64,000 bases of DNA from an uncultured Bdellovibrionales bacterium (GCA_964605525.1 CAZSCV010000001.1:82424-146423), one strand, 5' to 3'; counted from the first letter of the stretch, positions 530-61,169 are shown. The notes: generated from the letters alone by a model not told the origin. Numbers and translations are program-made.

Positions 530-823
530 ATGCAGATTAAAATCGATTCAATCAAAGAAAATCCGGTTAATATTCTCCGAAGAATGGGATATTCTTTTCA
601 GAGGCATGAAGGAGATCAAATGAGTTTTGTGCGTCCTTTGGCGCGGGCAGGCTTTCCGAGGTTTCATATTTATGCTAAAGTTGAAAACAGTGATTTGATT
701 ATCAATATTCATCTTGATCAGAAAAAAGAAACTTACGGACAAGACACGAGGCATCACGGGGAATACGATTTAAATAGCCGGGCATTGCAAGATGAAATGG
801 ATAGGATAAAAAGTATAATTTAA
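530..823 (+). CDS. hypothetical protein located between two tRNA-Leu genes
   Basis: 97-aa ORF, weak RBS, no motif. Confidence 0.3.
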   Translation: MQIKIDSIKENPVNILRRMGYSFQRHEGDQMSFVRPLARAGFPRFHIYAKVENSDLIINIHLDQKKETYGQDTRHHGEYDLNSRALQDEMDRIKSII

Positions 824-912: not shown

Positions 913-1050
913 CGTAAGAGTCCTTGCCCCTTTATCCCGCAGGGATTTTACGGGGTCTCCCGTGGCACCACGTAAAATAAAAATAGGAATTTTTATCACG
1001 TGGGCGTAGCCACGTAAAATCGCTACGCTTATACGTGGCACAGCCACAGA

Positions 1051-9068: not shown

Positions 9069-9158
9069 TAAATTTACAATTTTCAATTTACAATTTTTCC
9101 GCCTAAGGCGGACCAGCCTTGGGCTGGCAATCAATTTCCAATGATTTAATTTTCAATT
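9069..9158. repeat. GC-rich paired-hairpin mini-element, long form (copy A)
   Basis: CCGCCtaaGGCGG plus ACCAGCCttgGGCTGG, flanked by AT-rich aatttacaattttcaattt repeats; same element occurs at 12463-12550, 53490-53575 and 53765-53840. Confidence 0.7.
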
Positions 9159-9194: not shown

Positions 9195-10337
9195 ATGAAA
9201 AAAAGGATATTTTCAGGAATACAGCCGAGTGGAAGTTTGCATATTGGGAATTATTTGGGGGCGATCAAGAATTGGGTCGAGCTTCAAAATGAGTATGAGT
9301 CGATTTTTTGCATTGTGGATTTGCACGCAATAACGGTTTTGCAGAATCCGGAATTACTTCGGAAAAGGACTATTGATATCGCTAAGATTTATTTGGCGGC
9401 AGGGATAGACGCGAAAAAATCGGCAATGTTTGTGCAATCGCATGTTCATCAGCACAGTGAATTGGCTTGGATTTTGAATACGATTACGAAAAACTCGGAT
9501 TTAACAAAAATGACACAATTTAAAGATAAAACAAATATTCAATTTGATTTTGAAACCGTGGCTGAAGGCTTAACAGTATTAGAAAAAGATTTTAAAAAAA
9601 ACAAAGAAATAAAGGAGCTGATGAGAAAACATGGATCTTTGGAATTTGCTAAAAAATTAACATCTATAATACAAAAACAATTTAAGGAAAAAACCTTGAT
9701 TCCATTTAATATGGCAAGTGTAGGACTTTTTGATTATCCGGTCCTCATGGCGGCGGATATTTTGTTGTATGATACACAAGTTGTGCCAGTGGGACAAGAT
9801 CAAGTTCAACACATTGAACTTACCAGAACATTAGCGCGAAGATTTAATAAAAGGTTTGGGGATGTGCTTGTTGTTCCTGATTACTTTTTAAAGGAAGAAA
9901 CCAAAATGATTATGGGACTTGATGATCCGACAAAAAAGATGAGTAAATCAGCAAGCTCCGAATACAATTATATTGCGCTTTTGGATGATCCGAAGGTAAT
10001 TGAGAAAAAAATCAAAAAAGCCGTGACCGGAAGCGGAAGCGAGGTGAAATATTCTGATGACGAGCCGGCGTTGAAAAATTTGATCAACATATACAGCGCT
10101 TTTTCCGGAAAATCTGCCAGCGAAATAGTTTCAGAATACAAAGGAAAAGGATATGCCGATTTCAAAGAAGGATTGACAAAAGTAGTTTTGGATTTTATTA
10201 TTCCTTTTCAGGAAAAATTCAAGGCAATTGACGACAAACAAATTTTGGATATTCTTCAAAAAGGCGCTGAAAAAGTTCAGCCATTGGCGAAGAAAAAAAT
10301 CGAGGAGGTAAAGAAAAAGGTCGGTTTCGTTATTTAA
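9195..10337 (+). CDS. trpS: tryptophan--tRNA ligase
   Basis: SGIQPSGSLHIGNYLGAI (HIGH region) and KMSKS; class I Trp-type N-terminus; carries an insertion, 380 aa. Confidence 0.85.
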   Translation: MKKRIFSGIQPSGSLHIGNYLGAIKNWVELQNEYESIFCIVDLHAITVLQNPELLRKRTIDIAKIYLAAGIDAKKSAMFVQSHVHQHSELAWILNTITKNSDLTKMTQFKDKTNIQFDFETVAEGLTVLEKDFKKNKEIKELMRKHGSLEFAKKLTSIIQKQFKEKTLIPFNMASVGLFDYPVLMAADILLYDTQVVPVGQDQVQHIELTRTLARRFNKRFGDVLVVPDYFLKEETKMIMGLDDPTKKMSKSASSEYNYIALLDDPKVIEKKIKKAVTGSGSEVKYSDDEPALKNLINIYSAFSGKSASEIVSEYKGKGYADFKEGLTKVVLDFIIPFQEKFKAIDDKQILDILQKGAEKVQPLAKKKIEEVKKKVGFVI

Positions 10338-12200: not shown

Positions 12201-12458
12201 TTACATTGATGGCATACTTATGTTTCCGGCTTTCATTTCTTTTTGCATTTTCTTTTGAATGTTGAGCATAGCGGTGTTGATGGATTTGAGCATATTTTTT
12301 TCCAAATCTTTGGACTCTCTGGCTTGCGGGCTAATTTGAACACTCACGACTTGCATTGCGCCGTTGACGGTGATTTTGATTCCTTTATAATCTTCAGAGG
12401 AAGTCATTCCTTCCAAAAGTTTTTTCATTTGATACATCTGCTTCATTTTGTCGAACAT
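12201..12458 (-). CDS. ybaB: YbaB/EbfC family nucleoid-associated protein
   Basis: MFDKMKQMYQMKKLLEGM…ITVNGAMQVVSVQISP resembles YbaB ([20 protein letters not shown]…VTINGAHNC). Confidence 0.7.
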   Translation of the reverse strand: MFDKMKQMYQMKKLLEGMTSSEDYKGIKITVNGAMQVVSVQISPQARESKDLEKNMLKSINTAMLNIQKKMQKEMKAGNISMPSM

Positions 12459-12462
12459 ACGG

Positions 12463-12550
12463 GGTTAATTTTCAATGCTTAATTTTTAATTTTTCCGCCC
12501 AAGGCGGACCAGCCTTGGGCTGGCAAACAATTTACAATGAATAAATTTTT
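12463..12550. repeat. GC-rich paired-hairpin mini-element, long form (copy B)
   Basis: CCGCCcaaGGCGG plus ACCAGCCttgGGCTGG with AT-rich ttcaatg…tttacaatg flanks. Confidence 0.7.
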
Positions 12551-42936: not shown

Positions 42937-42961
42937 AAAAGGAAGTAACAGCATTAGATAA

Positions 42962-42991
42962 CAAAAAAACTTCACTAGTGAAGTTTTTTTG
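42962..42991. terminator. bidirectional terminator aaaaaaaCTTCACtaGTGAAGttttttt
   Basis: Perfect palindrome flanked by A7/T7. Confidence 0.6.
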
Positions 42992-42999
42992 TTATCTTG

Positions 43000-43374: not shown

Positions 43375-43426
43375 GCGTCGTGGGGGAATCCCAGTCTGCT
43401 GGTCCGCCTGTGGTGGAGAACCTTTG
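43375..43426 (-). repeat. duplicated tRNA-Lys 3' half (T-arm plus acceptor) with a paired-hairpin insert in the T-loop
   Basis: Minus strand: AAGGTTC[TCCACCACAGGCGGACCAGCAGACTGG]GATTCCCCCACGACGCACA, identical to the tRNA-Lys 3' end except for the bracketed insert. Confidence 0.6.
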
Positions 43427-43500
43427 TGCGTCGTGGGGGAATCGAACCCTCGACCATTGGCTTAAGAGGCCACTGCTCTACCGACTGAGCTAACGACGCA
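43427..43500 (-). tRNA. tRNA-Lys (anticodon CTT)
   Basis: Acceptor GCGTCGT/ACGACGC; D-arm TAGCTCAGTCGGTAGAGCA; anticodon loop CTCTTAA; T-arm GGTTCGATTCC. Confidence 0.8.
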
Positions 43501-43712
43501 TACTTTCTTTGTGTGTTTTTCGATTATATTTTGCGAGCTGTTCTACCGAGTGCCTGTCCGCCTATGGAGGAAGCTAACGACGCATCCTTTCTTTGTGTGT
43601 TTTTCGATTATATTTTGCGAGCTGTTCTACCGAGTGCCTGTCCGCCTATGGAGGAAGCTAACGACGCATACTTTCTTTGTGTGTTTTTCGATTATTTTTA
43701 GTCCAGTACAAC
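43501..43712. repeat. tandem direct repeat (~90 bp, 2.3 copies), each with a tRNA-Lys 5'-end fragment and a TATAAT box
   Basis: Unit tactttctttgtgtgtttttcgattatattttgcgagctgttctaccgagtgcctgtccgcctatggaggaagctaacgacgca repeated at 43501, 43591 and partially at 43681. Confidence 0.75.
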
Positions 43713-46641: not shown

Positions 46642-49365
46642 TTATATTTTTTCCAGATATTTTTCTAATTCAGAAATTTTTGTTTTTGCCTCAGCTAGTT
46701 TTTTTTGTTCTTGCTTGATGATTTCGGCGGGTGCTTTTTGAACAAAAGTCTTGTTGTTCAATTTGTTTTCCAGTCCGGAGATATATTTTTTCAAATTATC
46801 AATTTCTTTTTGGGTGTTTTCTTTCTCTTTTTTACTGTCAATAAGCCCTTCTAGCGGGATGTAGATATTGATTCCGGCAATAACGGTGTGCGCAGAGTTT
46901 TTAATCTCAGCTCCGTTTTTAGTTATCTTAATGGTGTCAATTCCGGTGCGCAGGCTTTTAATAATGTTCTCTTGAGAGCTAATCAGGGATTCATATTCTG
47001 GATTATTTTTAACATCAAAAATAATGCGGATTTTTTTCATTGGTTCAATTTTGTTTTCACTGCGAAGATTTCGAATAGAGATTATGATTTCTTTGATTAT
47101 GCTGAAGTGTATTTCATCCGCTTGAGAAGCGCTAGTAATCTCCCAATATTTTTCTTTGATTGGAAATTTTTCAATCATAAGCAATTTTTCTTTTCCTAAA
47201 ATACTCCAAATATTTTCCGTGACAAAAGGGGAGTAAGGGTGAAGAATTTTCAAAATATCTTCCAGAAGCATGTTTAAGATGATATTTTTTTCCGTTTTAT
47301 TGTCTTCAAATTTACTTACTTCGACATACCAATCGGCGAAATCATTCCAAACAAATTCTCTTATTTTTTCTATTGCTAAAGAAAAATTATAATTTTCTAT
47401 TTCATTTGTTATTTCTTCAATCAGATTCGACATTTTCTGCAATATCCAAAAGTCCGCCAATGTCAGCTTGTTTTTTTCTAACTGCAATTTTAAGTCGATT
47501 TGTTCCTTGTTCCTTGTTCCTTGCTTCTTGTCGATAATATAGCGGCTGATATTCCAAAGCTTGTTGATGAAATTTCGAGAGCTTTCCACTTTTTCTTCGT
47601 AGAATTTGCTGTCTTGCCCCGGGGTGATTCCTGATATCAAGCTCAGGCGAAGAGCGTCGGTTCCGTATTTTCGGGAAACATCCAGCGGATCGAGATTGTT
47701 TCCGGCGGATTTGGAAAATTTGTTTCCTTTTTCATCGCGAAGCATTCCGTGGATGTAGACATTCCTGAAGGGGATTTCATTCAGGTAATAAGTGCTCATC
47801 AAAATCATCCTTGCCATCCAGAAAAACAAAAGCTCCGAACCCATTTGCATCCAGCTGGTCGGGTGAAATATTTTTCTTTCGTCTTCAGTGAGGGTGGAGA
47901 ATGTCCAAAGACCGCTGGAGAACCAAGTGTCGAGCGTGTCCGGATCTTGTTTTACAGCGCCTCCGCAGAGGGGACATTTTTCCATTTTGGATCCGCTCAC
48001 AAAAGGTTTTTGACAATCCGGATTTTGGCAATACCAAACAGGAATCCTGTGTCCCCACCAAACTTGACGCGAGATGCACCAGTCGCGCAGGTTGTCGATC
48101 CAGTTGAAGTATATTTTTTCAAATCTTTCCGGCGTGATTCTTACTTTTTGATCCGGGTCATTGTTCAGTCCTGTCTCGACGGATTCTTTCATCAATTCCT
48201 TGAGAGTTTTTTCTTTTCCGGGAATTTTCTTGTTGACTGCGACGAACCATTGGGTCATGGGCAAAACTTCGACGATATCTCCGAATCTGTCTGAGGTGCT
48301 GACATTTTGCGTGATTTCTTCCTCTTTTTCCAGCAGGTTGTTTTGTTCGAGGTAGTGCGCGATTTCTTCGCGCGCGGTATCCGTGGAGATTCCGGCATAC
48401 TTTCCTGAATTTTTATTCATCAATCCGTCCTGTCCGATTACCTGGATGAGTTTTATTTCATTCCCTTGCGTTTTTTGTTTTTCCAGCATTTCAAAATCAA
48501 CCATCGAATGGGCGGGAGTAACTCCGACGGCTCCGGTTCCAAAATTTGCGTCAACCGAATCGTCGGCGATTACCTTGATTTTCAAATCGATTCCGCTTCC
48601 GGCAAAATCAGGAACTTCAAATGTTTGCCCGATATATTTTACGTACCTTTCGTCTTTCGGATTGACTGCGATGGCGGTGTCGCCCAGTTTTGTTTCCGGG
48701 CGGGTGGTAGCGATGGCGATCGGGAAGTCTTCGGAATATCTGAAAGTGTATAATTTTCCAATTCTTTCTTTGTATTCAAGTTCGTCGTCCGAGCAGGTGG
48801 ATTGTCCTTTGACCGACCAATTGACCACGCGGTGTCCGCGGTAAATCAGCTCGTCTTTGTACATTTTTTCAAAAACCTCATTGACGATTTTGCTTCGGGT
48901 TTCGTCGAAGGTATATGCCAGGCGCGACCAATCGCAACTGGTTCCCATTTTTCGGATTTGTTTCAGGATAGTGGATTTGGAGTTTTCGGCAAAAGAGCGG
49001 ATTTCTTCCAAAAGTTTTTCTCGGCCCAGTTCTTTTCGCGGGTCTTTGATGCCTTTTTCAATGAGAATTTTTTCCACTTTGGCTTGGGTGGCGACAGCGG
49101 CGTGATCGGTTCCGGGAAGTAGAAGCACTTTTTTCCCTTGCATTCTTTGGTAGCGTGCCATGATGTCCATCAAGGTATTTTCCATCGCGTGTCCCAAATG
49201 CAAAACGCCAGTCACGTTGGGAGGTGGCATCATAATTGAATAAGGCTCTCTGTTTTCAGGATTATCAACCCATGGTTGACCAACCTCTGGCTGGAAAAAA
49301 CCGGATTGCTCCCATTTTCGATATATTTCATCCTCAATTTCCTGAGGATTATATTGTTTTTCCAT
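46642..49365 (-). CDS. valS: valine--tRNA ligase
   Basis: PPNVTGVLHLGHAMEN (HIGH), KFSKSAGN (KMSKS), editing domain, C-terminal coiled coil; 907 aa. Confidence 0.95.
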   Translation of the reverse strand: MEKQYNPQEIEDEIYRKWEQSGFFQPEVGQPWVDNPENREPYSIMMPPPNVTGVLHLGHAMENTLMDIMARYQRMQGKKVLLLPGTDHAAVATQAKVEKILIEKGIKDPRKELGREKLLEEIRSFAENSKSTILKQIRKMGTSCDWSRLAYTFDETRSKIVNEVFEKMYKDELIYRGHRVVNWSVKGQSTCSDDELEYKERIGKLYTFRYSEDFPIAIATTRPETKLGDTAIAVNPKDERYVKYIGQTFEVPDFAGSGIDLKIKVIADDSVDANFGTGAVGVTPAHSMVDFEMLEKQKTQGNEIKLIQVIGQDGLMNKNSGKYAGISTDTAREEIAHYLEQNNLLEKEEEITQNVSTSDRFGDIVEVLPMTQWFVAVNKKIPGKEKTLKELMKESVETGLNNDPDQKVRITPERFEKIYFNWIDNLRDWCISRQVWWGHRIPVWYCQNPDCQKPFVSGSKMEKCPLCGGAVKQDPDTLDTWFSSGLWTFSTLTEDERKIFHPTSWMQMGSELLFFWMARMILMSTYYLNEIPFRNVYIHGMLRDEKGNKFSKSAGNNLDPLDVSRKYGTDALRLSLISGITPGQDSKFYEEKVESSRNFINKLWNISRYIIDKKQGTRNKEQIDLKLQLEKNKLTLADFWILQKMSNLIEEITNEIENYNFSLAIEKIREFVWNDFADWYVEVSKFEDNKTEKNIILNMLLEDILKILHPYSPFVTENIWSILGKEKLLMIEKFPIKEKYWEITSASQADEIHFSIIKEIIISIRNLRSENKIEPMKKIRIIFDVKNNPEYESLISSQENIIKSLRTGIDTIKITKNGAEIKNSAHTVIAGINIYIPLEGLIDSKKEKENTQKEIDNLKKYISGLENKLNNKTFVQKAPAEIIKQEQKKLAEAKTKISELEKYLEKI

Positions 49366-53036: not shown

Positions 53037-54233
53037 TTATCCCAGTTTCAAATTCGCGTTGGCTTCCAGGGTTTTCCAGTTTTGCAGGGCATCGCTTTTT
53101 TCTTTGCTGGTCATTTTTTGCCAGCGGAAAGCGGCGGCGCTGGCGATCATAGCGGCGTTGTCGCCGGTCAAAGCGATATCCGGCAAGCAATAATCAGTGT
53201 GCGGTAAATTTTTTTTAATCGCTTCGCCTAGCTGTTCGCGAAGCTCCTTGTTGGCACTCACACCGCCGGCGAGCATTATGGTTTTGGGTTGGAATTTTTC
53301 GGCGGCCCTCGCGGTTTTGTGGACAAGGACATCAATGGCGGCTTGCTGGAATTCGTGGGCGATTTCAGCTTTTAGTTTTTCTAGCTCGCTTGTTTCTATC
53401 TTTTTGACTTGATATAAAACCGCGGTTTTAAGCCCGGAAAAGGAAAAATTAAAATCTTTGGAATGCATCATTGGGCGGGGAAGATGGATGGAATTTTGAA
53501 TTTTGAATTTTGATTGCCAGCCCAGGGCTGGTCTCGCGCCTGAGGCGGACACGGCGCCTTGGGCGGAGAAATTTGCAGCAGCAGCTGCAATAGCTGGTCC
53601 TCCTGGGTACCCCAAATCCAAAATTCTCGCCACTTTGTCAAAAGCTTCTCCAGCGGCATCATCCAATGTTTGTCCGACGATTTCATACTGCAAATGATCT
53701 TTCATCAAAATCAATTGAGTGTGTCCCCCGGAAACGACTAAGCATAAAATGGGGAATTGTATTTTTGAATTTGAAAATTGTTTGGAAATTGCCAGCCCAA
53801 GGCTGGTCCGCCTTGGGCGGAGAAGTTGGTCATTGGTCATTGAGCTAATTTTATTTTCCGAAATAAAATTTGCGTAGATGTGTCCTTCAATATGATGGAT
53901 TCCAAGAAGCGGCTTTTTCCATTTGTATGCCAGAGTTTTGGCGGTGTTGGTTCCGACAAGTAATGCGGGAATAAGTCCGGGTCCGGCGGTAACAGCAATC
54001 AAATCAATTTTTTCGGGAGTAATTTTGGCAGTTTGCAAAGCCTCAGCAAGGACGGGAATTATATTTTTCAAATGTTCGCGCGCGGCAAGATTTGGTACGA
54101 CGCCTCCCCATTTGGCATGAAGTTTTACTTGGGAGGAAACAATGTTAGCAAGTATATTCAAATTACTGCCGTCAGATTTGAGGATAGCCACGGCAGTTTC
54201 ATCGCAAGATGTTTCAATTGATAAAATATTCAT
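53037..54233 (-). CDS. tsaD: tRNA N6-adenosine threonylcarbamoyltransferase TsaD, with two in-frame repeat-element insertions
   Basis: MNILSIETSCDETAVAI, HHIEGH, VSGGHTQL, GYPGGP, C-terminal GGVSAN…DNAAMIA; 398 aa against ~340 typical. Confidence 0.85.
   Translation of the reverse strand: MNILSIETSCDETAVAILKSDGSNLNILANIVSSQVKLHAKWGGVVPNLAAREHLKNIIPVLAEALQTAKITPEKIDLIAVTAGPGLIPALLVGTNTAKTLAYKWKKPLLGIHHIEGHIYANFISENKISSMTNDQLLRPRRTSLGLAISKQFSNSKIQFPILCLVVSGGHTQLILMKDHLQYEIVGQTLDDAAGEAFDKVARILDLGYPGGPAIAAAAANFSAQGAVSASGARPALGWQSKFKIQNSIHLPRPMMHSKDFNFSFSGLKTAVLYQVKKIETSELEKLKAEIAHEFQQAAIDVLVHKTARAAEKFQPKTIMLAGGVSANKELREQLGEAIKKNLPHTDYCLPDIALTGDNAAMIASAAAFRWQKMTSKEKSDALQNWKTLEANANLKLG
53490..53575. 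repeat. paired-hairpin mini-element inserted in-frame in tsaD (copy D)
   Basis: ttgaattttgattGCCAGCCcagGGCTGGtctcgCGCCtgagGCGGacacGGCGCCttgGGCGGAgaaattt; encodes FSAQGAVSASGARPALGWQSKFKIQN, absent from E. coli TsaD. Confidence 0.75.
53765..53840. repeat. paired-hairpin mini-element inserted in-frame in tsaD (copy E)
   Basis: tttgaatttgaaaattgtttggaaattGCCAGCCcaaGGCTGGTCCGCCttgGGCGGAgaagttgg; encodes ~SSMTNDQLLRPRRTSLGLAISKQFSNSKIQ between the HHxEGH and VSGGHTQL motifs. Confidence 0.75.
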
Positions 54234-54266: not shown

Positions 54267-54276
54267 GTTTGTTTTG

Positions 54277-54330
54277 TAGCGCTACGGAGAATCCCAGCTC
54301 AAAGCTGGTGCGCCCTGGGCGCAGAACTCC
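54277..54330 (-). repeat. duplicated tRNA-Glu 3' half with paired-hairpin insert in the T-loop
   Basis: Minus strand: CGGGAGTTC[TGCGCCCAGGGCGCACCAGCTTTGAGCTGG]GATTCTCCGTAGCGCTACAAAA. Confidence 0.6.
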
Positions 54331-54349
54331 CGTTGCTGTTGTATTTTTG

Positions 54350-54421
54350 TAGCGCTACGGAGAATCGAACTCCGGTTACCAGGATGAAAACCTGGTGTCC
54401 TAACCACTAGACGATAGCGCC
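54350..54421 (-). tRNA. tRNA-Glu (anticodon TTC)
   Basis: D-arm TCGTCTAGTGGTTAGGACA; anticodon stem CCAGG/CCTGG, loop TTTTCAT; T-arm CGGAGTTCGATTCTCCG. Confidence 0.8.
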
Positions 54422-54480: not shown

Positions 54481-54574
54481 TAATCTCTCCTTTGAGCATC
54501 GAGGATGCCACTCTGGTGGGTGGTCACCCGTTAGGGTGAAAAACCTGGTGTCCTAACCACTAGACGATAGCGCC
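54481..54574 (-). pseudogene. partial tRNA-Glu copy (5' half, identical up to anticodon-loop position 37) fused to a paired-hairpin element
   Basis: Minus strand: GGCGCTATCGTCTAGTGGTTAGGACACCAGGTTTTCA then CCCTAACGGGTGACCACCCACCAGAGTGG…; no matching 3' half follows. Confidence 0.5.
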
Positions 54575-61020: not shown

Positions 61021-61026
61021 TTTGTG

Positions 61027-61080
61027 CGCTTGGCAGGAATCCCAGTCTGCTGGTCGCCCGCTAGGGTGAGAACCTGCTTA
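61027..61080 (-). repeat. duplicated tRNA-Arg 3' half with paired-hairpin insert in the T-loop
   Basis: Minus strand: GCAGGTTC[TCACCCTAGCGGGCGACCAGCAGACTGG]GATTCCTGCCAAGCGCAC, against tRNA GCAGGTTCGATTCCTGCTAAGCGCAC. Confidence 0.6.
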
Positions 61081-61096
61081 CACTTTATCATTTTAG

Positions 61097-61169
61097 TGCG
61101 CTTAGCAGGAATCGAACCTGCGACCTTCTGGACCGCAACCAGACGCTCTATCCACTGAGCTACAAGCGC
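61097..61169 (-). tRNA. tRNA-Arg (anticodon reads GCG)
   Basis: Acceptor GCGCTTG/TAAGCGC; D-arm TAGCTCAGTGGATAGAGCG; anticodon stem TCTGG/CCAGA, loop TTGCGGT. Confidence 0.65.

What the first reader, a model, noticed from the sequence alone, without database searches (positions are those of the whole stretch)
9069..9158. Family of GC-rich paired-hairpin mini-elements (REP/RPE-like) scattered through an AT-rich genome
A composite element recurs at 9069-9158, 12463-12550, 53490-53575 and 53765-53840. It is built from two adjacent perfect GC hairpins (CCGCC-NNN-GGCGG and CCAGCC-NNN-GGCTGG) flanked by AT-rich, internally repetitive arms (aatttacaattttcaattt / ttgaattttgaaaattg). Shorter derivatives (one CCGCC/CACCC-type hairpin plus one CCAGC-type hairpin, ~28-30 nt) occur at 43386-43420, 54287-54320, 54497-54535 and 61040-61070. 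The loops vary while the stems are preserved, which implies selection on structure or ongoing mobility of a MITE-like element.
Basis: seen in the sequence. Interest (0 to 1): 0.55.

Follow-up and report, generated by a model that had tools for sequence, protein, structure and literature searches.

The report
Thirty-base double-hairpin insertion element family
The GC-rich hairpin pairs are copies of a 30-base insertion found in many bacterial phyla; it sits in frame inside essential genes and inside broken copies of tRNA genes, and elsewhere it accompanies a small tRNA-associated nuclease gene.

Summary
The window has 9 clear and 2 degenerate copies of one element: two abutting 15-nt GC-rich palindromes, CCAGCC-NNA-GGCTGG and TCCGCC-TNN-GGCGGA.

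- **Mobile unit.** A syntenic relative shows the unit is exactly these 30 nt, inserted without target duplication. The AT-rich "arms" are pre-existing target sequence.
- **Coding copies.** Two copies in tsaD and one in valS are in frame. In other genomes 33 of 51 coding copies use one of six orientation/frame combinations, giving S-A-x-G-G-P-A-x-G-W, so the insert is probably translated.
- **"Short derivatives".** These lie in the D, anticodon or T loops of partial tRNA duplicates that flank intact tRNA-Lys, -Glu and -Arg genes.
- **Distribution.** The exact stems occur in at least 120 stretches, from Patescibacteria, Omnitrophota, Planctomycetota, Verrucomicrobiota and others.
- **Partner gene.** In 80 loci chosen only by homology to an ~80-aa stand-alone GIY-YIG nuclease, 44 of 73 have the double hairpin just upstream. 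49 of 65 have a tRNA gene just downstream, and 41 of 49 have a hairpin-split 5' copy of that tRNA.

Best reading: the window holds ORF-less copies and scars of a tRNA-targeting GIY-YIG selfish element. No such gene lies in the window, and the mechanism is inferred. It is not a REP or a classical MITE. It behaves like RPEs, mitochondrial double-hairpin elements and phage SegB.

The parts
9098..9127 (-). Canonical 30-nt core (CCAGCC-CAA-GGCTGG TCCGCC-TTA-GGCGGA read on the minus strand). Intergenic, 68 nt upstream of trpS (9195-10337 +), embedded in AAATTG-type heptamer repeats.
   Evidence: 47.6 bits, E 3e-10
12494..12523 (-). Canonical 30-nt core. Intergenic, 36 nt upstream of the start of a small minus-strand ORF (12201-12458; it begins MFDKMKQMYQMKK, looked YbaB/EbfC-like by eye, not tested). 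Sits in AT-rich repeats.
   Evidence: 48.5 bits
43371..43425 (-). 3' partial copy of tRNA-Lys directly downstream of the intact gene. In tRNA sense it reads AA-GGTTC[core]GATTCCCCCACGACGCACA. The 27-nt core lies at 43391-43417, inserted in the T loop between C56 and G57. The relative L121 has no such copy.
   Evidence: 33.3 bits
43426..43499 (-). Intact tRNA-Lys(CTT), flanked on both sides by core-bearing partial copies.
43526..43693 (-). Two tandem 84-nt units. Each holds the upstream flank, tRNA-Lys nt 1-13, a degenerate core (TCCTCCATAGGCGGACAGGCAC at 43550-43571 and 43634-43655) in the D loop, and then tRNA nt ~17-31. L121 has one homologous unit whose tRNA-derived parts match its own, different, tRNA-Lys.
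49265..49294 (-). Diverged core inside valS (ORF 46642-49365, minus): CCAGCC-AGA-GGTTGG TCAACC-ATG-GGTTGA. It encodes QPEVGQPWVD. It is a clean 30-nt insertion relative to L121 valS, and the second hairpin carries two compensated pair changes.
53517..53567 (+). 51-nt expanded core in tsaD insertion site 2, encoding SAQGAVSASGARPALGW on the minus strand. L121 has the plain 30-nt core at the same place.
53792..53821 (+). Canonical core in tsaD insertion site 1, encoding RPRRTSLGL on the minus strand. L121 has the AT-rich repeats at this site but no core, so this is a clean 30-nt difference.
53037..54233 (-). tsaD ORF, 398 aa against about 335-345 aa for solved bacterial homologues. It hosts two in-frame core insertions at two sites absent from the solved homologues (aa ~126-152 and ~222-249).
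54275..54330 (-). 3' partial copy of tRNA-Glu downstream of the intact gene. In tRNA sense it reads GGAGTTC[core]GATTCTCCGTAGCGCTACA. The core lies at 54294-54323 with compensated stems (TGCGCC/GGCGCA, CCAGCT/AGCTGG). Absent in L121.
54349..54421 (-). Intact tRNA-Glu(TTC), lying between the two core-bearing partial copies.
54502..54574 (-). 5' partial copy of tRNA-Glu: nt 1-35, then the core in the anticodon loop (54508-54539), then CATCCT. Its upstream flank is 100% identical to the flank of the intact tRNA-Glu in L121, so this is the ancestral gene position.
61024..61077 (-). 3' partial copy of tRNA-Arg(GCG) downstream of the intact gene (61096-61169). In tRNA sense it reads GCAGGTTC[core]GATTCCTGCCAAGCGCAC. 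The core lies at 61042-61069 in the T loop.

Best explanation
The feature is a family of 30-nt insertion elements. Each is two abutting 15-nt GC-rich palindromic hairpin units with free loop sequence. They are inserted precisely and without target duplication at short sites of the form YB^RAA. Read on the other strand, the consensus empty site is GGATTT^GAATTT, which resembles the tRNA T-loop motif GGTTC^GAATCC.

Three kinds of copy survive:
1. In-frame copies at tolerant sites in housekeeping proteins, where they are translated as ten extra residues.
2. Copies in AT-rich repeat tracts.
3. Copies in the D, anticodon or T loops of non-functional partial tRNA gene copies lying next to an intact gene.

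They are the non-coding hallmark of a selfish element that targets tRNA genes. In other genomes its full form is: old tRNA 5' part - hairpins - ~80-aa stand-alone GIY-YIG (UPF0213/SLX1-like) nuclease gene - complete replacement tRNA - hairpins - old tRNA 3' part.

The likely cycle, which is inferred, runs as follows. The nuclease breaks DNA at tRNA-loop-like sites. The break is repaired by copying from an element-bearing template, either by homing or by microhomology-guided gene conversion. The hairpin pair ends up exactly at the break point and destroys that site. Homologous recombination between the duplicated tRNA segments then removes one side, including the ORF when the split is in the T loop.

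What remains is what the window shows: an intact tRNA, a hairpin-split partial copy, and solo 30-nt copies in genes. The window itself holds only ORF-less copies.
For: **Shown directly**
- Identity and number of copies.
- Clean 30-nt filled-versus-empty sites in tsaD and valS against the syntenic locus L121.
- No general target-site duplication: 109 of 116 copies have none.
- Flank consensus YB^AAA.
- Compensatory stem changes.
- In-frame position at two sites absent from solved TsaD homologues.
- Frame and orientation bias: 33 of 51 coding copies, p = 2e-14. This indicates selection on the translated insert.
- Removing cores never restores a complete tRNA.
- Partial copies always adjoin an intact gene for the same tRNA. 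D-loop and anticodon-loop splits lie upstream of it, T-loop splits downstream.
- L121 has an intact tRNA-Glu at the position of the window's split copy, and has no 3' copy after tRNA-Lys.

**Link to the nuclease**
- GIY-YIG ORFs (Pfam PF01541, E about 1e-15 to 1e-18) lie between a hairpin-split tRNA fragment and the intact tRNA in 7 core-selected loci.
- In 80 loci selected only by GIY-YIG homology, 44 of 73 have a double hairpin within 150 nt upstream (p about 1e-65).
- In the same set, 49 of 65 have a same-strand tRNA starting within 300 nt downstream (p about 1e-66).
- 41 of 49 have a hairpin-split 5' copy of that tRNA.
- Two-sided structures carry identical cores on both sides, and in L190 the two old tRNA halves pair with each other.
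- Split points next to an ORF are at tRNA nt 12-44 and never in the T loop. This is what collapse by recombination between the longer repeat predicts.
- The nearest solved relatives are UPF0213 proteins and the structure-specific nuclease SLX1.

**Precedent**
Phage T4/T6 SegB is a free-standing GIY-YIG homing endonuclease in a tRNA cluster. It recognises the T-psi-C stem-loop motif (PMC2330249). Its mapped cleavage motif is RAWTSGAAC, and it drives tandem amplification of the tRNA+segB region (PMC13096335). GAATC^GAAC is where the window's T-loop cores sit.
Against: - No GIY-YIG gene or detectable remnant lies in the window or in L121. The link rests on other genomes.
- Nuclease activity, its target and the repair route are untested.
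- The ~80-aa protein has no DNA-binding domain, so sequence-specific cutting of tRNA genes is not assured.
- The replacement tRNA inside the element keeps an intact copy of the presumed target, which a simple 'site-plug immunity' model does not explain.
- D-loop and anticodon-loop sites match the T-loop-like consensus only weakly. The flank information totals only about 4.5 bits.
- Compensatory changes in perfect palindromes could also arise mechanically, by template-switch correction, rather than by selection.
- Taxon labels of MAGs can be wrong, although several hits lie on contigs of 290-650 kb.
Confidence: 0.6

Rival explanations
1. A non-autonomous single-strand DNA transposon, mobilised in trans by a hairpin-binding HUH/Y1 transposase of the REP/RAYT or IS200/IS605 (PATE) type.
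For: There are two terminal hairpins, precise insertion without target duplication, and a short preferred target. Loops are free while stems are fixed, as expected for protein recognition of hairpins.
Against: - No GTAG/CGTC tag is present.
- Copies occur inside ORFs.
- No Y1/RAYT gene recurs in 120 core-bearing loci.
- Orientation shows no bias relative to GC skew (p = 0.07-0.24).
- Thirty nucleotides is well below what I recall as the minimal ends of IS608-type elements (memory, not tested here).
- The GIY-YIG/tRNA linkage is very strong.
Confidence: 0.1
2. Enzyme-independent spread. Stable hairpins stall replication, and the nascent strand copies a core from another locus by microhomology-mediated template switching. 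The same process makes the nearby tandem duplications.
For: All copies share short similar flanks that could serve as microhomology. Tandem duplications occur next to cores (84-nt units at tRNA-Lys; L018 and L071). Some cores sit between perfect 7-nt direct repeats.
Against: Near-invariant stem sequence across phyla is hard to keep without sequence-specific recognition. This model also does not explain the consistent nuclease-ORF/tRNA architecture.
Confidence: 0.12
3. The two 15-bp palindromes are double-stranded recognition sites of a dimeric GIY-YIG enzyme, restriction-enzyme-like with an unread N3 centre. Cutting at both flanking cores excises the ORF+tRNA cassette for cut-and-paste movement, and solo cores are rejoined footprints.
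For: The units are symmetric with unconstrained centres. Identical cores flank the cassette as direct repeats. Symmetric 'compensated' variants such as TCAGCC/GGCTGA and CCCGCC/GGCGGG occur. Some GIY-YIG enzymes are type II restriction enzymes (abstract of PMC3045582, listed).
Against: There is no evidence of excised forms. Solo cores occur at sites that are clean 30-nt insertions into intact genes, which a footprint model explains poorly. The closest solved relatives are structure-specific nucleases, not restriction enzymes.
Confidence: 0.1
4. A host-beneficial structured RNA or DNA signal, such as a terminator, a processing or stability element, or a protein-binding site, kept by selection at each locus.
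For: There is covariation. Copies at 9098 and 12494 lie in 5' regions of genes. Cores lie 10-50 nt upstream of the nuclease ORFs.
Against: - Copies occur in both orientations.
- Copies lie inside ORFs and in dead tRNA fragments.
- Presence differs between close relatives.
- No T-run follows the hairpins.
- No Rfam family matches.
Confidence: 0.05

Closest known systems
Rickettsia palindromic elements (RPE)
   Same: [quoted passage not shown] They also occur in intergenic DNA. The window's tsaD and valS copies behave this way.
   Different: From memory, RPEs are about 100-150 bp, have Rickettsia-specific consensus sequences, and have no known linked nuclease. Here the unit is 30 nt, occurs in many phyla, targets tRNA-loop-like sites and is linked to a GIY-YIG gene.
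Mitochondrial double-hairpin elements (DHEs) and GC clusters of fungi; repetitive hairpin elements of sponges
   Same: Short GC-rich double hairpins in AT-rich genomes, found in intergenic DNA, rRNA and protein genes. Stems are conserved and loops variable, identical copies occur across species, and the elements are not removed from transcripts (PMC10085805; PMC2800124).
   Different: Those are organellar and eukaryotic, and their mobilising agent is unknown. No tRNA-fragment architecture is reported in the texts read. Sequence homology to the present core was not tested.
Phage T4/T6 SegB, a free-standing GIY-YIG homing endonuclease in a tRNA gene cluster
   Same: A GIY-YIG gene sits next to tRNA genes. 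It recognises the T-psi-C stem-loop motif (RAWTSGAAC), the place where the window's T-loop cores sit. It promotes its own inheritance and tandem amplification of tRNA+nuclease segments (PMC2330249; PMC13096335).
   Different: From memory, SegB is a roughly 220-aa protein with a DNA-binding part. SegB is phage-borne and has no hairpin insert. Here the nuclease is the ~80-aa catalytic domain alone, closest to UPF0213/SLX1, is chromosomal, and comes with hairpin-split tRNA duplicates.
REP / BIME / REPIN elements with RAYT transposases
   Same: Short GC-rich palindromes, often in pairs, repeated many times in a genome.
   Different: REPs carry a GTAG or CGTC tag (PMC3733652 abstract), are extragenic, and flank a RAYT gene. 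None of these holds here.
Integrative elements that target tRNA genes and carry a replacement tRNA segment
   Same: Insertion into a tRNA gene is made harmless by a duplicated tRNA part, which leaves partial tRNA repeats at the junctions.
   Different: Those use tyrosine integrases and att sites and are kilobases long (from memory). Here there is no integrase, the cassette is about 0.4 kb, and a 30-nt hairpin pair sits exactly at the split.

Membership tests
REP/REPIN (RAYT-mobilised) | Conserved GTAG or CGTC tetranucleotide at one end of the palindrome | tested here: not met
   The flank consensus of 116-119 copies is YB^core^AAA, with no GTAG/CGTC.
REP/REPIN (RAYT-mobilised) | Extragenic location | tested here: not met
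   Copies lie inside tsaD and valS. About 51 of 119 copies elsewhere lie within long ORFs.
REP/REPIN (RAYT-mobilised) | Cognate Y1 (RAYT) transposase gene associated with the repeats | tested here: inconclusive
   No recurrent Y1/RAYT-like ORF cluster appeared in 120 core-bearing 8-kb loci. Whole genomes were not available.
Classical MITE | Terminal inverted repeats plus a fixed-length target-site duplication | tested here: not met
   Filled/empty pairs show clean 30-nt insertions. 109 of 116 copies have no flanking direct repeat.
IS200/IS605-derived miniature elements | Strand-specific insertion (orientation bias with replication) and a fixed 4-5-nt target on the left flank only | tested here: not met
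   There is no significant orientation bias against GC skew. Both flanks carry weak information.
Rickettsia palindromic elements | In-frame insertion in ORFs, with the insert retained in the product | tested here: inconclusive
   In-frame position is shown. Translation is inferred from the frame bias of 33/51. No transcript or protein data are available.
Rickettsia palindromic elements | About 100-150-bp family consensus sequences of Rickettsia | tested here: not met
   The unit is 30 nt and is found in Patescibacteria and other phyla. Sequence comparison with RPE consensus sequences was not run.
Mitochondrial double-hairpin elements | GC-rich sequence of about 26-79 bp folding into two hairpins, dispersed in an AT-rich genome, including genes | tested here: met
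   The window is 32-48% GC over 2-kb windows, mostly 34-42%. This is a resemblance of form only. Homology and organellar origin do not apply.
Free-standing GIY-YIG homing endonuclease elements at tRNA genes (SegB-like) | GIY-YIG ORF adjacent to tRNA genes | tested here: inconclusive
   Not met in the window, where there is no GIY-YIG ORF or remnant. Met in related loci: 49 of 65 have a tRNA within 300 nt downstream.
Free-standing GIY-YIG homing endonuclease elements at tRNA genes (SegB-like) | Endonuclease cleaves the tRNA gene allele that lacks the element, followed by gene conversion | not testable with these tools
   This needs enzyme assays or crosses. The only support is positional: the cores sit inside GAATC^GAAC, the SegB motif.
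Free-standing GIY-YIG homing endonuclease elements at tRNA genes (SegB-like) | Catalytic domain joined to a DNA-binding domain | tested here: not met
   The ORFs are about 76-85 aa, covering the catalytic domain only. The best solved relatives are UPF0213 and SLX1.
tRNA introns (group I or bulge-helix-bulge) | Removal of the insert restores a complete tRNA | tested here: not met
   Deleting the cores from the window and 120 loci created no new tRNA call.

The most novel reading that the evidence does not exclude
The hairpin pair and the nuclease cassette form a two-part selfish system of a kind not described before. The 30-nt 'plug' is written into tRNA-loop-like break sites, both in tRNA genes and in look-alike codon runs such as Gly-Phe-Asp-Phe. 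This makes those sites immune to further cutting. The cassette survives in essential tRNA genes by bringing its own replacement tRNA instead of a self-splicing intron. Because tRNA sequence is nearly universal, the system can cross phylum boundaries, and it leaves a fixed ten-residue insert in housekeeping proteins.
Probability: 0.25. Interest if true: 0.85.

Novelty: new variant of a known kind. Interest (0 to 1): 0.74.

Why it matters
If this holds, it identifies a very small mobile sequence shared by many uncultured bacterial phyla. It also offers a candidate explanation for two things:
- unexplained ten-residue inserts in conserved proteins (TsaD, ValRS, DnaJ, MiaA, HisRS, CCA-adding enzyme, Pol I);
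- partial tRNA gene copies in Patescibacteria genomes.

It would give a role to the widespread small UPF0213-type GIY-YIG proteins, for which I know of no established function and found none in the searches here. It would also show a route by which a homing-type element can live in an essential tRNA gene without an intron.

There are practical uses too:
- The 30-mer is a simple marker for annotation, flagging false frameshifts, pseudo-tRNAs and protein length variation.
- It may help trace gene flow among these lineages.

Tried and rejected
- **First pattern search.** I used a 4-nt loop and found nothing. The loops are 3 nt, and later searches corrected this.
- **Rfam.** No family matches the cores at the gathering threshold or at E up to 10.
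- **tRNA intron or split-tRNA idea.** Rejected: removing the cores restores no tRNA, and an intact gene is always adjacent.
- **Loop complementarity.** Complementary loops would allow one long hairpin. They occur no more often than chance: 10 observed, 13 expected.
- **General target-site duplication.** Absent. Only 7 of 116 copies have one, and those lie in tandem-repeat tracts.
- **Origin of the spacers.** BLAST of the spacers between each tRNA and its partial copy found no source in the window or loci.
- **Replication-strand bias.** Not significant.
- **Moanabacter copies.** Many identical-flank copies turned out to be a passenger core inside the end of an insertion sequence, not an autonomous form.
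- **GIY-YIG remnants in the window.** None found next to the cores, even with permissive settings.
- **Literature.** Searches by sequence string and by topic found no description of this element. Paquin et al. 2000 on Allomyces double-hairpin elements is not held. I recall GIY-YIG-associated gene-end duplication in Allomyces mtDNA, but that is memory only.

Full report

Yes. Every listed site carries two abutting GC-rich hairpins. I call the orientation CCAGCC-NNN-GGCTGG followed by TCCGCC-NNN-GGCGGA "F". Cores lie at these positions:

| Coordinates | Strand | Note |
|---|---|---|
| 53792-53821 | + | canonical |
| 53517-53567 | + | 51 nt |
| 54294-54323 | + | |
| 54508-54539 | + | |
| 61042-61069 | + | |
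| 43391-43417 | + | |
| 9098-9127 | - | canonical |
| 12494-12523 | - | canonical |

A covariance model built from the copies scores them at E = 2e-10 to 1e-4. It also finds a copy in valS at 49265-49294 (-) and two degenerate copies at 43550-43571 and 43634-43655. Abutting perfect hairpin pairs are about 20 times more frequent than in shuffled sequence, 173 against 9. That count includes loci chosen for the core. Rfam has no matching family.

**2. Anatomy**

The unit is 30 nt, made of two 15-nt palindromes with 6-bp stems and 3-nt loops. In 119 distinct copies from other genomes the first loop is NNA (A in 108 of 119) and the second is TNN (T in 111 of 119). The loops are not complementary to each other beyond chance.

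All six reading frames of the stems are open, and 30 nt is ten codons.

Diverged copies keep pairing through double changes, for example TGCGCC/GGCGCA, TCACCC/GGGTGA, TCAACC/GGTTGA and TCAGCC/GGCTGA. On 68 distinct sequences, 99.1% of cells pair and 8 of 12 pairs show changes on both sides, well above both controls. There are two caveats. The alignment was fitted to the model. And palindromes can be "corrected" mechanically by template switching, which I state from established knowledge.

**3. What exactly is inserted?**

A syntenic locus from a relative, L121 (TsaD 83% identical), gives filled and empty sites.

- **tsaD site 1.** The relative reads ...CCAATTTC|CAATTTCCAAAC..., while the window reads ...CCAACTTC[30 nt]CAATTTCCAAAC....
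- **valS.** The relative has GG-T7-AACCC, while the window has GG-T6-[30 nt]-TAATCC.

Both are clean 30-nt differences with unambiguous ends and no duplication. So the AT-rich heptamer "arms" are target context, since L121 has them without the core.

Across 116 copies there is no general target duplication. Flank information is short and weak: position -2 is Y, -1 is not A, +1 is A or G, and +2 is A. The consensus empty site, GGATTT^GAATTT on the other strand, resembles the T-arm sequence GGTTC^GAATCC.

**4. Coding copies**

tsaD (53037-54233, minus) is 398 aa. Solved bacterial TsaD proteins are about 335-345 aa and align in three blocks that skip aa ~126-152 and ~222-249. Both gaps contain a core.

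TsaD proteins of related Moranbacteria carry variable low-complexity inserts at the same two sites, and the shortest homologues have none.

In other genomes, about 51 of 119 copies lie in long ORFs. Of these, 33 use one orientation and frame, giving S-A-x-G-G-P-A-x-G-W, usually after a Phe codon (p = 2e-14). By reading the translations rather than running a family scan, the hosts look like DnaJ (G/F region, many independent sites), MiaA, HisRS, CCA-adding enzyme, Tgt, Pol I, RNase R, UvrC, EF-Ts, L15 and KsgA. A preference for one frame cannot come from an insertion mechanism. I therefore infer that the insert is translated and selected for tolerability. The inference is not proven.

**5. tRNA-linked copies**

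All the "short derivatives" lie in partial copies of the neighbouring tRNA gene.

- **tRNA-Lys** (43426-43499, minus) is preceded by two 84-nt tandem units, each holding nt 1-13, a degenerate core in the D loop, and nt ~17-31. It is followed by AA-GGTTC[core]GATTCC...ACA.
- **tRNA-Glu** (54349-54421) is preceded by nt 1-35[core]CATCCT and followed by GGAGTTC[core]GATTC...ACA.
- **tRNA-Arg(GCG)** (61096-61169) is followed by GCAGGTTC[core]GATTCC....

Removing the cores restores no tRNA anywhere.

The same rule holds in 16 loci from several phyla. D-loop and anticodon-loop splits give a 5' fragment upstream of the intact gene. T-loop splits give a 3' fragment downstream.

In L121 the tRNA-Glu is intact exactly where the window has the split 5' copy, with a 100% identical upstream flank. 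tRNA-Lys there has no 3' copy. The window's arrangement is therefore derived.

The D-loop fragment of tRNA-Lys is shared with L121, but its tRNA-derived parts match each genome's own tRNA. This suggests gene conversion between the fragment and the gene.

**6. Distribution**

The hits come from many Patescibacteria lineages, Omnitrophota, Planctomycetota, Verrucomicrobiota (Moanabacter), Lentisphaerales, Bdellovibrionales, gammaproteobacterial MAGs and a Leptospira MAG. Several lie on contigs of 290-650 kb. There was one hit in viral contigs. The many Moanabacter copies are a passenger core in the end of an insertion sequence.

**7. The linked protein**

Clustering ORFs from the core-bearing loci revealed a ~80-aa GIY-YIG protein (PF01541) in 7 loci. 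It starts 8-40 nt after a hairpin-split tRNA fragment and ends 0-25 nt before the intact tRNA.

As an independent test I fetched 80 metagenome loci using this protein alone.

| Feature near the GIY-YIG ORF | Loci |
|---|---|
| Double hairpin within 150 nt upstream (most 9-50 nt) | 44 of 73 |
| Same-strand tRNA starting within 300 nt downstream (most 6-37 nt) | 49 of 65 |
| Second double hairpin within 250 nt downstream (just past the tRNA in the loci inspected) | 17 of 65 |
| Upstream 5' copy of that same tRNA (the copies displayed are split by hairpins) | 41 of 49 |

The covariance model places cores just upstream of the ORFs as well. The first two fractions are far above background (p about 1e-65 and 1e-66).

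Two-sided cases read: old-5'-part[core]b' - ORF - new tRNA - a'[core]old-3'-part. The same core appears on both sides. In L190 the two old halves pair with each other and differ from the new tRNA.

Split points next to an ORF are at tRNA nt 12-44, never in the T loop.

The protein is closest to UPF0213 proteins and to the structure-specific nuclease SLX1, and less close to I-TevI. Neither the window nor L121 has such a gene or a detectable remnant.

**8. How it most likely works**

*Shown:*
- precise 30-nt insertions;
- the tRNA-fragment architecture;
- the statistical linkage of core, nuclease and tRNA;
- gain or loss between relatives.

*Inferred:*
- The nuclease breaks tRNA-loop-like DNA.
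- Repair copies the element from a template, whole cassette or core alone, using the conserved tRNA sequence or the short shared flanks.
- The core ends up at the break point and disrupts that site.
- Recombination between the longer duplicated tRNA segment then removes one side.

The last step explains two observations. T-loop events leave only "tRNA + 3' fragment" without an ORF, as at tRNA-Lys, -Glu and -Arg here. D-loop events keep "5' fragment - ORF - tRNA".

There is a direct precedent. Phage SegB is a free-standing GIY-YIG homing endonuclease in a tRNA cluster. It recognises the T-psi-C stem-loop motif (PMC2330249). Its mapped cleavage motif is RAWTSGAAC, and it drives tandem amplification of tRNA+segB (PMC13096335). 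The window's T-loop cores sit at GAATC^GAAC.

Open problems remain:
- The domain-only nuclease has no obvious means of sequence recognition.
- The replacement tRNA still carries the presumed target.
- How a core first reaches non-homologous coding sites is unknown.

**9. Rivals**

- A Y1/HUH-mobilised single-strand element fits the hairpins and the lack of duplication. It lacks the tag, the gene and the strand bias.
- Enzyme-free template switching fits the local duplications. It does not fit the cross-phylum invariance or the cassette.
- A restriction-like reading of the palindromes as double-stranded sites is not excluded.
- A host regulatory role is unlikely, given both orientations, positions inside ORFs and presence/absence polymorphism.

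**10. Comparison and novelty**

In behaviour the element resembles RPEs (in-frame inserts) and mitochondrial double-hairpin elements and GC clusters. In its partner it resembles SegB-type elements. It fails the defining tests for REP/REPIN, classical MITEs, IS200/IS605 derivatives and tRNA introns.

I found no description of it in the held literature, by sequence string or by topic. That is not proof of absence. I rate it a new variant of known kinds, with a fairly high chance of being a genuinely undescribed system.

Noticed in passing
window 53037-54233 (tsaD), aa ~126-152 and ~222-249; homologues P0002-P0120: TsaD of Moranbacteria-like genomes ranges from 351 to 479 aa. Two fixed sites carry hypervariable low-complexity inserts (NFQFSISKQ..., translations of AATTTTC-type heptamer repeats), with or without a GC core.
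   Followed up: partly
window 53480-53600 versus L121 10690-10800: About 75-90 nt around the tsaD site-2 core are 100% identical between the window and L121, while the rest of the gene is about 88% identical. This may reflect recent gene conversion or transfer of the core-bearing segment.
   Followed up: no
window 43526-43693 and L121 16820-16913: The D-loop-split 5' fragment of tRNA-Lys is shared by both genomes. In each genome its tRNA-derived parts match that genome's own tRNA-Lys (acceptor GCGTCGT versus GCATCCA). This points to concerted evolution of the fragment and the gene.
   Followed up: partly
window 530-823 (+): A 97-aa ORF lies between two tRNA-Leu genes (422-506 and 830-913). It has no Pfam match at E up to 1. 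Its position is like that of the tRNA-associated nuclease ORFs, but it is not GIY-YIG.
   Followed up: partly
window 915-1050: Downstream of tRNA-Leu(TAG) there is a cluster of repeated CCACGTAAAAT/ACGTGG motifs with small hairpins (ACGGGGTCTCCCGT, GTGGCACAGCCAC). Its nature is unknown.
   Followed up: no
window 42956-42997: A perfect 19-bp inverted repeat with a 4-nt loop (AGATAACAAAAAAACTTCAC-TAGT-GTGAAG...) lies just past the tRNA-Arg/His/Arg/Lys cluster. It is probably a bidirectional terminator.
   Followed up: no
L021 6150-7480; L142 1810-1960: Other hairpin-pair families occur next to tRNA genes in GIY-YIG loci, for example AGCCACGC-TCA-GCGTGGCT with CCCGCGC-TAA-GCGCGGG, and ACAACGC-TAA-GCGTTGT with GGGACGC-TCA-GCGTCCC. 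One pair sits at the acceptor 3' end. In L021 the tRNA also carries a large insert of roughly 470 nt (by my count of the displayed sequence) in the anticodon region, probably a group I intron.
   Followed up: no
L008, L012, L031, L040, L062 and others (Moanabacter MAG): A core sits about 80 nt from the right end of a multi-copy insertion sequence (a ~600-aa transposase-like ORF). It is therefore multiplied as a passenger.
   Followed up: partly
L052 6800-6850 and window 53517-53567: In two unrelated genomes the second hairpin of a core carries a nested 21-nt insertion, keeping the total a multiple of three.
   Followed up: no
L121 9546-9815: The relative has about 450 nt with an 89-aa ORF between tRNA-Glu and the tsaD terminator. 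The window lacks it. The region around the tRNA has been remodelled beyond the core events.
   Followed up: no
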